A stretch of DNA of 64,000 bases from positions 1,375 through 65,374 of the forward strand of contig NZ_DAOOUJ010000004.1 of assembly GCF_035390745.1 (NCBI RefSeq), given 5' to 3'. Origin of the DNA: Methanosarcina sp. Lineage in GTDB: Archaea > Halobacteriota > Methanosarcinia > Methanosarcinales > Methanosarcinaceae. This document shows, piece by piece, positions 62,971 through 64,000 of the stretch (position 1 is the first letter of the stretch; every line of letters begins with the position of its first letter). The position numbers were made by a program, and so were the translations under genes. The notes beneath the pieces are model-generated. The model made no database searches, had not been told where the DNA came from, and saw only the letters and a program-made list of their open reading frames with translations.

Positions 62971-63516
62971 TTACCTTCTTATATTTACAAATAGCCTCTT
63001 TTTCGTGACAGGAATCAGTTTCTTCCACTCAACAACCGAATCTTCGTGAAACTCGTACTCGTCTACAGTTTTATCCGAAAATTTGCCGTCCACTTCATAT
63101 ACATAAAAACCCTCTTCTCCATCCGTAGATACGACTTTTACCCTGTCTCCCATTTTCTTTACCTCAACAGCAGCTACACTTTTCAGGGCTTCAAGTAAAT
63201 TCGTGCCTTCTTCTACCTCAATATGTCTGTTTTCTGCAAAACGGTCAAGGAAAGAATAGACATTGCTCAGTTTTATTCCTATCATGTGGGTATTTCCAAA
63301 CTTTTTCCTTTCTATAAGTTCGGCTTTTTCCAGGACTTTCACATGTTTCGCAGCTACAGGCACAGAGATCCCTATTTCCCTTGCAAGACCTGAGATATGC
63401 TTATCTCCTTCACTCAGGCTCTCAAGGATTGAAAGGCGTGTATCACTTGAAATCGCTTTGAAGAGGTTTTCTCTACCTCCGTTAATTCCTGAATCCCTCA
63501 TAACACTTACTACCAT
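62971..63516 (-). CDS. ArsR-family regulator with C-terminal beta-grasp (DUF4430-like) domain
   Basis: LFKAISSDTRLSILESL..HISGLAREIGISVPVAAKHVKVLE HTH; C-terminal NLLEAL..FYVYEVDG..DEY..VVEW. Confidence 0.85.
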   Translation of the reverse strand: MVVSVMRDSGINGGRENLFKAISSDTRLSILESLSEGDKHISGLAREIGISVPVAAKHVKVLEKAELIERKKFGNTHMIGIKLSNVYSFLDRFAENRHIEVEEGTNLLEALKSVAAVEVKKMGDRVKVVSTDGEEGFYVYEVDGKFSDKTVDEYEFHEDSVVEWKKLIPVTKKRLFVNIRR

Positions 63517-63953
63517 GATGATCCTCTATTTTACCTCAAATACTTATAATTATTGCCCATTCTAACTCAAGTAAAGTATATCATTCTTTCTACTAATAAT
63601 CTTTTTATTTATTCTTCTAGCAAATTTGCTTTAGTTATTATTTTTCTGGTTTCGTTCTCTCTAATTTAGTAACTAGTTAACAGTGAAGAAATTTGCATAT
63701 TTATTCTTAAATTCTGTTGTTCTTTTGCTATTGGTCCTGTCTGGTCTTTTTTTAAAACTGGTCTTATTTTTATGAGCTTCGATGCCTGTCCCTTTACTTT
63801 TATAATTATTTCTTCTTCTCTTCTCGTTGAAAGTCAGAAGTTAAACTTTTCATCTAAAAACAGCTTTCTTTGCACTTGTTATCCAAAAAGATAACAAACA
63901 TTACCCAAAAACCAGTTTTTATTTAATCCTACCATAGATGCTCAGAAGGTACT

Positions 63954-64000
63954 ATGGACTCTGCGACGTTAACTGTTATTGGAATTATGATAGGTATCCT
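63954..64000 (+). CDS. 5' fragment of a probable membrane protein running off the window
   Basis: GAAGGT RBS-like then MDSATLTVIGIMIGI...; only 15 codons visible. Confidence 0.45.
   Translation, partial: MDSATLTVIGIMIGI

What the first reader, a model, noticed from the sequence alone, without database searches (positions are those of the whole stretch)
62971..63516. ArsR regulator fused to a transcobalamin-C-terminal-like (DUF4430) domain: candidate corrinoid sensor
The C-terminal 75 aa (GTNLLEALKSVAAVEVKKMGDRVKVVSTDGEEGFYVYEVDGKFSDKTVDEYEFHEDSVVEW) follow the DUF4430 pattern by eye: T-x-L-x-A-L, V-x-S-x-x-G, aromatic-x-Y-x-V-[ND]-G, D-x-Y, V-x-W. That beta-grasp fold is the cobalamin-binding beta-domain of transcobalamins. 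The HTH lacks obvious metal-binding Cys. A protein B12/cobamide-sensing repressor in a corrinoid-rich methanogen would be notable. It is divergent from a membrane-protein gene starting at 63954.
Basis: inference. Interest (0 to 1): 0.62.

Follow-up and report, generated by a model that had tools for sequence, protein, structure and literature searches.

The report
Candidate archaeal vitamin B12-sensing gene regulator
This methanogen gene joins an ArsR-type DNA-binding domain to a small domain related to the B12-binding part of the animal B12 carrier transcobalamin; with a conserved DNA operator in front of corrinoid and cobalt uptake genes, it probably does in archaea what B12 riboswitches do in bacteria, though no binding has been measured.

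Summary
ORF 62971-63516 (-) encodes a 181-aa, cysteine-free protein with an ArsR winged helix and a C-terminal DUF4430 / transcobalamin-beta-like domain.

- **Domain.** The window protein alone scores just under Pfam's cut-off. The family matches PF14478 (21 of 29 members). Its profile retrieves canonical DUF4430 repeat proteins, and with stand-alone DUF4430 proteins added it has the human transcobalamin beta domain as top PDB hit. The folded C-domain matches only DUF4430, transcobalamin, intrinsic factor and haptocorrin; ThiS ranks far below.
- **Context.** The gene lies beside different corrinoid or cobalt genes in different lineages: DUF2162-ExbB-DUF2149-CobN-like (here), BtuFCD-CbiZ, or CbiMNQO with cbi genes. 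No riboswitch was found.
- **Operator.** I derived tttg-GNTAAC-N4-GTTANC-N6-GNTAAC-aa (window 63878-63905). It is conserved in Methanosarcina promoters with varying spacers. Two of three out-of-sample distant members carry it at their own promoter. The pattern also matches unrelated phage/plasmid repeat arrays.

Best reading, about 0.6: a corrinoid-responsive one-component regulator of corrinoid and cobalt acquisition. Ligand, DNA binding and the sign of regulation are untested. This scan reached the same reading for a distant relative in another genome (e1-3312765). No paper describing it was found.

The parts
62971..63516 (-). Gene for the 181-aa ArsR-DUF4430 regulator (stop codon included)
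   Evidence: ORF; Pfam; 172 homologues at E<=1e-3 in the 90%-identity cluster database, the named ones Methanosarcinales plus one Hydrothermarchaeota; 252 species genomes encode a relative
63274..63468 (-). ArsR-type winged helix-turn-helix (residues ~17-81); recognition helix ISVPVAAKH is invariant in the family
   Evidence: HTH_5 E=4.4e-9; Foldseek hits to SrnR, NolR, CzrA, CadC at E 1e-5 to 1e-3; invariant columns in alignment A1
62980..63234 (-). DUF4430 / transcobalamin-beta-like domain (residues ~95-179), the proposed ligand sensor
   Evidence: PF14478 21.1 bits in this protein, and 21 of 29 family members at E<=0.01 with best 4e-9; the C-domain profile hits canonical DUF4430 repeat proteins at 1e-31 to 1e-11; the profile with stand-alone DUF4430 proteins added has the human TC beta domain 5no0 as top PDB hit, E=0.008; fold match
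63878..63905 (-). Candidate operator. Read on the minus strand it is tttg-GGTAAT-GTTT-GTTATC-TTTTTG-GATAAC-aa, three half-sites fitting GNTAAC-N4-GTTANC-N6-GNTAAC with 1 mismatch
   Evidence: The only match in the 64-kb window. Half-sites are conserved and spacers vary across the Methanosarcina loci held. The same layout recurs in other lineages and in 2 of 3 out-of-sample loci
63907..63927 (+). Conserved palindrome AAAAAC-CA-GTTTTT (63907-63920) overlapping a TATA-like TTTTTATTTAAT (63916-63927): the putative core promoter of the DUF2162 operon, 10 nt from the operator
   Evidence: Conserved block in the Methanosarcina alignment; exact palindrome. Its promoter role is inferred; no transcript data were available
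63954..64000 (+). Start of the divergent DUF2162 gene, cut by the window end. It is the first gene of DUF2162 - MotA/ExbB - DUF2149, followed by CobN-like genes with their own operator copies
   Evidence: Identical contigs L001-L004; PF09930 E=7e-72 and PF09919 E=7.5e-33
63539..63556 (-). Conserved AT-rich block (GCAATAATTATAAGTATT on the gene strand) about 30 nt before the regulator's ATG: its putative TATA box
   Evidence: Conserved in the Methanosarcina alignment; near-palindrome. Inferred only

Best explanation
The gene encodes a one-component transcription factor. An ArsR-type winged-helix dimer recognises the operator tttg-GNTAAC-N4-GTTANC-N6-GNTAAC-aa. Its C-terminal domain, related to the transcobalamin beta domain (DUF4430), binds a complete corrinoid. 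In Methanosarcina that corrinoid would be 5-hydroxybenzimidazolyl-cobamide (my knowledge of the genus). Ligand occupancy changes DNA binding, so that genes for corrinoid and cobalt acquisition follow the cell's corrinoid status. These are the genes that B12 riboswitches control in bacteria.

In this genome the target is the divergent DUF2162-ExbB-DUF2149 operon, plus CobN-like genes that carry their own operator copies. In other lineages the targets are BtuFCD-CbiZ, CbiMNQO, surface DUF4430 proteins and the regulator's own gene.

**Shown here:** the domain identities, the gene neighbourhoods, and the operator with its positions.

**Inferred:** that the ligand is a corrinoid, that this protein is what binds the operator, and the sign of regulation.

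At target promoters the operator ends about 10-12 nt upstream of the TATA-like box and 40-45 nt from the start codon. That fits either occlusion of BRE/TFB (holo-repressor) or recruitment of TFB (apo-activator released by ligand, which is the usual ArsR allostery). I rate these two as about equal. At the regulator's own gene in several lineages the operator covers the start codon, which indicates autorepression.
For: **1. Domain.**
- PF14478 matches 21 of 29 family members, best 4e-9.
- The C-domain profile retrieves proteins with 4-10 canonical DUF4430 repeats at 1e-31 to 1e-11.
- A profile of the C-domains plus stand-alone DUF4430 proteins has the human transcobalamin beta domain as its top PDB sequence hit, E=0.008, over nearly the whole domain.
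- The AF2 C-domain model (pLDDT 87.5) has only DUF4430, TC, IF and HC among its top 18 PDB matches.
- The isolated TC beta domain binds cobalamin and cobinamide by itself (PMC5599065).

**2. Context.** Different B12 gene sets adjoin the regulator in different lineages:
- CobN-like/ExbB system in Methanosarcina and ANME-3.
- BtuFCD-CbiZ in ANME-2, M. zhilinae, L070 and L093.
- CbiMNQO with CbiX/C/D in Hydrothermarchaeota, and CbiMQO in Methanocellales and some Methanosarcina.
- The bacterial counterpart hmuSTUV (CobN-like, MotA/ExbB, DUF2149) is reported to be preceded by a B12-box riboswitch (PMC11681262).

**3. Operator.**
- It is conserved with variable spacers in Methanosarcina and has extra copies before CobN paralogues.
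- It is present at BtuF, APendo2-regulator and own promoters in other lineages.
- In the out-of-sample test, L091 has a 0-mismatch site over the regulator's ATG, and L093 has a 2-mismatch site in the 77-bp BtuF/regulator divergent region.
- Background is 10 hits in 894 kb, and 9 of those are themselves tttg/tatg-prefixed sites.
- In the metagenome scan, the four non-array archaeal hits outside Methanosarcina lie before CbiMNQO, PKD-BtuF-BtuC, a stand-alone DUF4430 gene next to a regulator, and a beta-propeller-DUF4430 giant.

**4. No alternative sensor.** No Rfam riboswitch was found in the window or in five related loci. The protein has no Cys and no alpha5 His, so the canonical ArsR metal sites are absent.
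Against: - No ligand or DNA binding has been measured.
- The window protein's own PF14478 score is below Pfam's cut-off, and the Foldseek E-values for the small domain are weak (0.07-1).
- The regulators lack a roughly 6-residue loop of canonical DUF4430/TC, and the canonical Trp (TC W377) is Tyr here. The binding pocket may therefore differ.
- Prokaryotic TC-beta-like proteins have not been shown to bind B12 in the papers I could search. One preprint proposes haem for a TC-beta/alpha-like pair in L. sakei (10.1101/864751).
- Context is not universal. Most Methanococcoides loci, L005/L081, L091 and L092 show no adjacent B12 gene.
- With 3 mismatches allowed, the cross-lineage operator test is only moderately significant: 5 of 12 lineages against 1.46 expected, reached by 3 of 200 shuffles.
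- The exact pattern also occurs in 53 phage/plasmid-like repeat arrays, so the pattern alone is not diagnostic.
- The rest of this genome could not be searched, and no RNA data were available.
Confidence: 0.6

Rival explanations
1. The regulator and operator are as described, but the effector is another tetrapyrrole rather than a finished corrinoid. Candidates are haem, a cobalt-precorrin or cobyrinate intermediate, sirohydrochlorin or F430.
For: The Methanosarcina target operon shares three gene families with the haem-utilisation genes hmuSTUV of P. gingivalis. A TC-beta/alpha-like pair in L. sakei was proposed to scavenge haem (10.1101/864751). The regulators differ from TC in the 368-375 loop and at W377. 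One distant member lies 4 kb from HemA and precorrin-2 dehydrogenase genes.
Against: CbiZ, a corrinoid salvage enzyme, is in the linked operons of several lineages. CbiMNQO with CbiX/C/D and surface DUF4430 proteins are typical B12 regulon members. The hmu operon itself is reported to carry a B12-box riboswitch. The only experimentally defined ligands of this fold are corrinoids.
Confidence: 0.15
2. It is a Co(II)/Ni(II)-sensing or ligand-independent ArsR regulator. The DUF4430-like domain serves only for oligomerisation or partner contact.
For: ArsR/SmtB proteins classically sense metals, including Co and Ni (PMC7689651). CbiMNQO and CobN-like chelatase genes are metal-handling genes. The PDB entry 3u7z (DUF4430) was deposited as a 'putative metal binding protein'. 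The three-half-site operator suggests higher-order oligomers.
Against: The protein has no cysteine and no alpha5 His/Asp/Glu cluster. The conserved His residues sit in generic ArsR positions. The NCBIfam metalloregulator model scores below its cut-off, 48.1 against 55. The C-domain has no conserved His or Cys. BtuFCD-CbiZ and DUF4430 surface proteins handle corrinoids, not free metal.
Confidence: 0.12
3. It is a transcription factor unrelated to B12. For example, it might control the radical-SAM/HhH-DUF4130 pair that follows it in many Methanosarcinaceae, with the adjacency to B12 genes being inherited synteny.
For: The order APendo2-regulator-rSAM_HHH-DUF4130 is conserved in Methanococcoides, Methanolobus, Methanomethylovorans, Methanohalophilus and Methanosalsum. 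Some members have no B12 neighbour.
Against: The B12 neighbours differ in kind and arrangement between lineages, which argues against inherited synteny. The operator is found before B12 genes and before the regulator itself, not before rSAM_HHH. The rSAM_HHH gene has its own, different conserved element, AATACTTTCAC-N3-GCTTRC.
Confidence: 0.08

Closest known systems
Beta domain of transcobalamin / intrinsic factor / haptocorrin (Pfam PF14478, DUF4430; PDB 5no0/5np4, 2bb5, 2pmv, 4kki) and bacterial DUF4430 proteins (3u7z)
   Same: The fold is the same (TM 0.58-0.68) and homology is detectable at sequence-profile level. Hydrophobic or aromatic residues align with TC F376/W377/L379 (F137/Y138/Y140 here). 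The isolated TC beta domain binds cobalamin and cobinamide on its own and assembles with a second domain only when ligand is present (PMC5599065).
   Different: This domain is cytoplasmic and fused to a DNA-binding domain, not secreted. There is no alpha (alpha6/alpha6 barrel) partner domain. A roughly 6-residue loop is shorter, and Trp is replaced by Tyr. A conserved basic tail, KKLxPVTKKxLxVxVK, is added. Ligand binding is untested.
ArsR/SmtB family repressors (PF01022; e.g. SmtB, CzrA, CadC, NolR, SrnR)
   Same: The winged-helix fold and HMM match. The operator is an inverted repeat with half-site centres about 10 bp apart.
   Different: It has no alpha3 or alpha5 metal ligands and no cysteine. 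The sensor is a separate C-terminal domain. The likely targets are uptake and biosynthesis genes rather than efflux or detoxification genes.
Cobalamin riboswitch (Rfam RF00174 clan)
   Same: The inferred regulon is the same: btuFCD-type transport, cbiMNQO, cbi genes, and hmuSTUV-like CobN/ExbB systems. The presumed logic, feedback by the finished cofactor, is the same.
   Different: The sensor is a protein acting at transcription initiation, not an RNA element in the 5' leader. No riboswitch was detected in these loci.
B12-binding transcription factors of bacteria (CarH/LitR, AerR/PpaA), from my own knowledge
   Same: These are proteins in which a corrinoid bound to a sensor domain controls DNA binding or a partner regulator.
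   Different: They use the Rossmann-type B12-binding domain (PF02310) or the SCHIC domain and work as light sensors. No such domain is present here, and the role proposed here is metabolic feedback.
Archaeal vitamin regulators built as wHTH + cofactor-binding domain (RbkR riboflavin kinase-wHTH, PDB 3cta/5trd; ThiR), from my own knowledge
   Same: The design principle is the same: a winged helix fused to a domain borrowed from the metabolism or transport of the vitamin. These replace the bacterial FMN and TPP riboswitches. The riboflavin kinase chain 3cta/5trd appeared as a weak HTH hit.
   Different: The sensor domain and the vitamin are different, and there is no sequence relationship beyond the HTH.

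Membership tests
ArsR/SmtB wHTH (PF01022) | HMM match above the curated cut-off | tested here: met
   HTH_5 36.5 bits against a cut-off of 22, E=4.4e-9; all 29 aligned members match
ArsR/SmtB wHTH (PF01022) | Winged-helix fold superposable on solved ArsR proteins | tested here: met
   Foldseek: SrnR 7p6f E=1e-5, rmsd 1.2 A over 73 columns; also NolR, CadC and CzrA
ArsR/SmtB metalloregulators | Metal ligands at the alpha3(N) Cys site or the alpha5 His/Asp/Glu site | tested here: not met
   The protein has zero Cys and no His in helix 83-91 (sequence). NF033788 scores 48.1, below its cut-off of 55
DUF4430 / transcobalamin beta domain (PF14478) | HMM match above the curated cut-off | tested here: inconclusive
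   The window protein scores 21.1 bits against a cut-off of 23.8. At family level, 21 of 29 members match at E<=0.01, best 4e-9
DUF4430 / transcobalamin beta domain (PF14478) | Reciprocal profile search recovers canonical members | tested here: met
   The C-domain profile hits P0122 (10 DUF4430 repeats) at 1.8e-31, and also P0129, P0150 and P0156. The profile with stand-alone DUF4430 proteins added hits the TC beta domain 5no0 at E=0.008 as top PDB hit
DUF4430 / transcobalamin beta domain (PF14478) | Same fold as solved TC/IF/HC beta domains | tested here: met
   The top 18 Foldseek PDB matches are all from this family, TM 0.58-0.68, probability 0.91-1.0. ThiS is at rank 22 with probability 0.38
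DUF4430 / transcobalamin beta domain (PF14478) | Binds a corrinoid on the nucleotide-loop face | not testable with these tools
   Only alignment-level conservation of hydrophobic positions could be shown. This needs UV-vis, ITC or a structure
Corrinoid-responsive regulon (functional analogue of the B12 riboswitch regulon) | A shared operator in front of several B12 transport or biosynthesis operons and of the regulator gene | tested here: met
   The sites lie before DUF2162/CobN-like, BtuF, CbiMNQO and DUF4430 genes and over the regulator's own ATG in several lineages. The whole-genome regulon of this organism could not be tested
CarH/LitR-type B12 photoreceptor regulators | B12-binding domain PF02310 with the His-on motif | tested here: not met
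   No PF02310 hit even at E<=10, and no conserved His in the C-domain

The most novel reading that the evidence does not exclude
Archaea that lack B12 riboswitches use a cytoplasmic transcobalamin-type beta domain as the corrinoid sensor of a dedicated transcription factor. As in transcobalamin, the ligand would act by gluing the beta domain to a second protein surface, here the wHTH or the partner subunit. That would switch binding to a three-half-site operator that abuts BRE/TATA of all corrinoid and cobalt acquisition operons. This would be the first protein-based feedback regulator of B12 homeostasis. It would also be a prokaryotic, intracellular use of the fold that animals use for B12 carriage.
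Probability: 0.5. Interest if true: 0.8.

Novelty: new variant of a known kind. Interest (0 to 1): 0.7.

Why it matters
In bacteria, B12 uptake and synthesis are controlled almost everywhere by cobalamin riboswitches. None was found by Rfam in the window or in five related loci. I found no published account of how methanogens set the level of these costly pathways, even though their energy metabolism depends on corrinoids.

A protein sensor with a defined operator would make that question directly testable with EMSA, ITC, and deletion or RNA-seq in Methanosarcina. It would give the widespread DUF4430 domain a functional assignment in prokaryotes. It would define a B12 regulon that includes an uncharacterised secreted CobN-like/ExbB-type system. 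It could also provide a corrinoid-responsive genetic switch for archaeal genetics.

Tried and rejected
- **Exact palindrome enumeration.** Listing exact 5+5 palindromes upstream of the regulator across 13 lineages found nothing shared. The operator only emerged from half-site scans that allowed a degenerate second position.
- **A different enriched k-mer.** The most enriched k-mer, AATACTTTCAC-N3-GCTTRC, belongs to the promoter of the downstream rSAM_HHH gene in seven lineages. It is not palindromic and is absent from B12 promoters. I rejected it as the operator.
- **PDB searches with family profiles alone.** Sequence searches with the family profiles A1 and A2 found only ArsR proteins or noise. 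The transcobalamin link needed stand-alone DUF4430 proteins in the profile.
- **Full-length fold search.** Foldseek with the full-length model returned only ArsR proteins, so the C-domain had to be folded alone.
- **A wrong recollection.** I recalled that Bacteroides BtuH carries DUF4430, but the literature search did not support this, so I dropped it.
- **Metagenome operator scan.** Of 78 loci, 53 were repeat arrays. Phage or plasmid replication genes (DnaB, DnaC/IstB-like, primase) were detectable on 17 of the 78 loci. These arrays are unrelated to this system and show that the pattern alone is not diagnostic.
- **AmzR.** The AmzR family of Methanosarcina (bioRxiv 10.1101/2025.05.05.652248) is an unrelated regulator.
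Full report
**1. What is in the window**

The ORF 62971-63516 on the minus strand encodes 181 aa.

- Pfam gives an ArsR HTH_5 match at residues 25-69 (E=4.4e-9, above the cut-off).
- Pfam also gives a PF14478 (DUF4430) match at residues 104-165. It covers positions 1-69 of the 72-position profile, with E=4.5e-4 and 21.1 bits. This is just under the gathering score of 23.8.
- NCBIfam sees only a generic ArsR/SmtB HTH, below its own cut-off.
- The protein has no cysteine, and no histidine in the short helix after the wing. The classical alpha3 and alpha5 metal sites of ArsR/SmtB sensors are therefore absent (sequence).
- On the 3' side lie fibrillarin, Nop5 and a GHMP kinase, which are convergent and unrelated.
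- On the 5' side, 437 bp away and divergent, a gene starts at 63954 and is cut by the window end.

**2. Is the C-terminal domain really DUF4430 / transcobalamin-beta-like?**

Four independent lines say yes.

- **(a) Pfam on the family.** Of 29 aligned family members at 48-93% identity, 21 match PF14478 at E<=0.01, the best at 4e-9.
- **(b) Reciprocal search.** A profile of the C-domain alone (A2) was searched against 1.8 billion representative proteins.
  - It finds 77 proteins at E<=1e-3.
  - Besides the ~165-185-aa fusion proteins, these include proteins with 3-10 canonical DUF4430 repeats, at E from 1.8e-31 to 1.6e-11. Two of these also carry prenyltransferase-like alpha/alpha toroids and SLH domains.
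- **(c) PDB by sequence.** A profile that combines the regulator C-domains with stand-alone DUF4430 proteins (A3) has the human transcobalamin beta domain (5no0/5np4) as its best PDB sequence hit. The E-value is 0.008, over residues 8-106 of 108.
- **(d) Fold.** The AlphaFold model of the C-domain has pLDDT 87.5.
  - Its 18 best PDB matches are the bacterial DUF4430 protein 3u7z, transcobalamin, intrinsic factor and haptocorrin (TM 0.58-0.68, rmsd 1.4-3.1 A, probability 0.91-1.0).
  - After these the probabilities collapse. ThiS is rank 22 with probability 0.38.

There are differences from the canonical domain. The regulators lack about six residues of the loop that corresponds to TC 368-375. 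They have Tyr where TC has W377. They add a conserved basic tail.

The isolated human TC beta domain binds cobalamin, cobinamide and an antivitamin on its own. It assembles with the alpha domain only in the presence of ligand (PMC5599065). That supplies a precedent for ligand-driven domain assembly.

**3. Distribution and neighbourhood**

The protein is identical on several digester metagenome contigs. The closest named genome is Methanosarcina hadiensis, at 96%. In total 252 species-representative genomes encode a relative, and I fetched 80 loci.

I ran a tblastn census with reference proteins taken from annotated loci, together with precomputed Pfam annotation. The results by lineage:

| Lineage | Genes next to the regulator |
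|---|---|
| Methanosarcina, ANME-3 | Divergent from DUF2162 - MotA/ExbB - DUF2149, followed by one to several very large CobN-like genes. The 1852-aa one begins with a signal-peptide-like N-terminus. |
| Some Methanosarcina | Followed instead by CbiMQO. |
| ANME-2 | Precedes BtuF-BtuC-BtuD-CbiZ. |
| M. zhilinae, L070 | A BtuFCD operon diverges from an AP_endonuc_2-regulator pair. |
| Methanolobus, Methanomethylovorans, Methanohalobium | CbiZ lies 0.9-2.7 kb upstream. |
| Methanocellales | CbiQOM is adjacent. |
| One Hydrothermarchaeota | Divergent from CbiM-N-Q-O-CbiX-CbiC-CbiD and further cbi genes. |
| Most Methanococcoides, two Methanohalophilus loci | No B12 neighbour. The conserved order there is AP_endonuc_2 - regulator - radical-SAM/HhH - DUF4130. 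|

The Methanosarcina target set shares three families with hmuSTUV of Porphyromonas gingivalis: CobN-like, MotA/ExbB and DUF2149. A B12-box riboswitch is reported upstream of hmuS (PMC11681262).

Rfam finds no riboswitch, and no other RNA family, in the window or in five of these loci.

**4. The operator**

Aligning the Methanosarcina intergenic regions showed a conserved block next to the DUF2162 start. Half-site scans resolved it as tttg-GNTAAC-N4-GTTANC-N6-GNTAAC-aa. The half-sites are conserved while both spacers vary between species.

In the window it is at 63878-63905 with 1 mismatch, and it is the only copy in 64 kb. A TATA-like TTTTTATTTAAT follows 10 nt later, and the DUF2162 ATG follows 45 nt after the operator edge.

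Further copies in Methanosarcina loci:
- upstream of CobN paralogues (L001:600; L003:1990, 6817 and 7512; L011:3434; L014:4218);
- L037:2433, between a BtuC-like gene and a cation-efflux gene;
- L040:4677, before a DUF1638 gene.

Copies of the same layout outside Methanosarcina:
- L070: in the BtuF / AP_endonuc_2-regulator divergent region, 1 mismatch.
- M. zhilinae: same region, 3 mismatches, with again 10 nt to a TATA-like box.
- Methanoperedens: over the regulator's own ATG, 2-3 mismatches.
- ANME-2: over the regulator's own ATG, 3 mismatches. This one is partly explained by the D-N codons.
- ANME-2 BtuF promoter: the core palindrome GCTAAC-ACCT-GTAACC, 11 nt before a TATA box.

With 3 mismatches allowed, 5 of 12 non-Methanosarcina lineages have a site near the regulator. 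The expectation is 1.46, and 3 of 200 shuffles reach 5. That is only moderate support.

**5. Out-of-sample test**

I then looked up three distant family members that I had not used before.

- **L093.** The regulator is divergent from BtuF-BtuF-x-CbiZ-BtuC-BtuD, with CbiM-PDGLE-CbiO-CbiQ 1 kb away. It carries a 2-mismatch operator in the 77-bp divergent region.
- **L091.** The neighbours are pilin and CRISPR genes, with no B12 gene. It carries a perfect operator spanning the regulator's own ATG.
- **L092.** It has none.

For sites with up to 2 mismatches, the background far from regulators is 10 in 894 kb. Nine of those ten carry the tttg/tatg prefix and are themselves family sites. Two hits in a few hundred bases is therefore far beyond chance.

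**6. Metagenome scan with the exact pattern**

The scan used 19 specified bases and returned 78 loci. They fall into four groups:

- 11 are Methanosarcina DUF2162 promoters.
- 53 are arrays of six or more half-sites. Phage or plasmid replication genes (DnaB, DnaC/IstB-like, primase) were detectable on 17 of the 78 loci. This is an unrelated iteron-like class and shows that the pattern alone is not diagnostic.
- 10 are unclassified.
- 4 are other archaeal loci, and in all four the site precedes a B12-type gene:
  - CbiM-N-Q-O (L133);
  - a PKD-BtuF-like gene plus BtuC, 41 nt away (L100);
  - a membrane-anchored stand-alone DUF4430 gene, 40 nt away, with an L091-type regulator nearby (L131);
  - a 1565-aa beta-propeller protein with two DUF4430 domains (L143).

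The distance of 40-45 nt from operator edge to start codon recurs in three gene types.

**7. Interpretation**

*Shown:*
- an ArsR wHTH fused to a genuine, if divergent, transcobalamin-beta-type domain;
- an invariant recognition helix across the family;
- a matching conserved operator at the regulator's own promoter in several lineages, and at promoters of corrinoid and cobalt acquisition genes;
- absence of canonical metal sites and of riboswitches.

*Inferred:*
- that the domain binds a corrinoid;
- that this protein is the operator-binding factor;
- the direction of control.

The target-promoter geometry places the operator just upstream of BRE/TATA. That is compatible with a holo-repressor that occludes TFB. 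It is equally compatible with an apo-activator released by ligand. Sites over the regulator's own start codon indicate autorepression.

**8. Rivals**

- Another tetrapyrrole as effector. The haem precedent is, and the Hmu similarity is.
- Metal sensing, or a merely structural role for the domain.
- A B12-unrelated regulon.

The diversity of B12 neighbours, CbiZ, and the DUF4430 surface proteins in the regulon argue against all three, but none is excluded without biochemistry.

**9. Novelty**

Full-text searches were for DUF4430; DUF2162/DUF2149; archaea + cobalamin + ArsR + riboswitch; an archaeal cobalamin regulon; and cobamide + methanogen + regulator. None found a description of this regulator. 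A review of cobalt and B12 homeostasis lists only metal-sensing ArsR proteins (PMC7689651).

I re-derived the domain, context and operator evidence independently here.

Two kinds of evidence could not be obtained.

Noticed in passing
L001:1539-7097 (-), beyond the window's right edge; operator-like sites at L001:600 and L003:1990, 6817 and 7512: The CobN-like genes downstream of DUF2162-ExbB-DUF2149 are huge (1442-1852 aa). The 1852-aa one starts with a signal-peptide-like N-terminus (MNKIIHLLFLSALLFLVFTPGVLAEE). This suggests an extracytoplasmic chelatase or dechelatase energised by an ExbB-type channel, like hmuSTUV of Bacteroidota. Each paralogue has its own copy of the operator.
   Followed up: partly
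Downstream of the regulator in L005, L045, L046, L050, L061, L063-L074, L076-L078, L080-L084, L086, L089 and L090 (e.g. L005:8532-8560): A strongly conserved, non-palindromic element AATACTTTCAC-N3-GCTT(A/G)C lies about 20 nt before the TATA box of a radical-SAM/HhH - DUF4130 gene pair in seven Methanosarcinaceae lineages. It is probably the site of a different regulator.
   Followed up: partly
L094-L171 (53 of 78 loci, e.g. L110:5350-5480): Arrays of 22-bp units (G-N-TAAC N4 GTTA-N-C TGTTTR) lie in about 700 bp of non-coding DNA. Phage or plasmid replication genes (DnaB, DnaC/IstB-like, primase-helicase) were detectable on 17 of the 78 loci. The variable base co-varies between all half-sites of one array (GGTAAC/GTTACC, GATAAC/GTTATC, GCTAAC/GTTAGC, GTTAAC). 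They look like iterons or DnaA-box-like origin repeats with element-specific specificity.
   Followed up: partly
window 63609-63620: A perfect 12-bp palindrome AGCAAATTTGCT sits in the middle of the divergent intergenic region. The block AAAG(C/T)AAATTTG is conserved in Methanosarcina but is not always palindromic. Its function is unknown.
   Followed up: no
P0137 (234 aa), P0128 (413 aa), L143:4998-9695 (-): The regulator-type DUF4430 domain occurs in other architectures: NUDIX + C-domain, a 190-aa N-terminal extension + ArsR + C-domain, and a 1565-aa PQQ-type beta-propeller protein with two DUF4430 domains. The last recalls the beta-propeller B12-binding lipoprotein BtuG of Bacteroides.
   Followed up: no
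L006:7276-8004 and the homologous gene in L005, L051, L055, L066-L071, L077, L080 and L081: A xylose-isomerase-like TIM-barrel gene (PF01261, AP_endonuc_2) lies directly upstream of the regulator in several genera, and in M. zhilinae it overlaps the regulator's start by 4 nt. In M. zhilinae and L070 the pair appears to be driven from the operator-bearing divergent promoter shared with BtuFCD. It may be an unrecognised corrinoid-related enzyme.
   Followed up: no
L040:4677 and L040:5312-6016; L139:55-675; L155:11315-11995: A DUF1638 gene lies about 600 nt after an operator copy in one Methanosarcinaceae genome. It sits directly after the DUF2162-ExbB-DUF2149 genes in two metagenome contigs. It is a possible further member of the regulon.
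   Followed up: no
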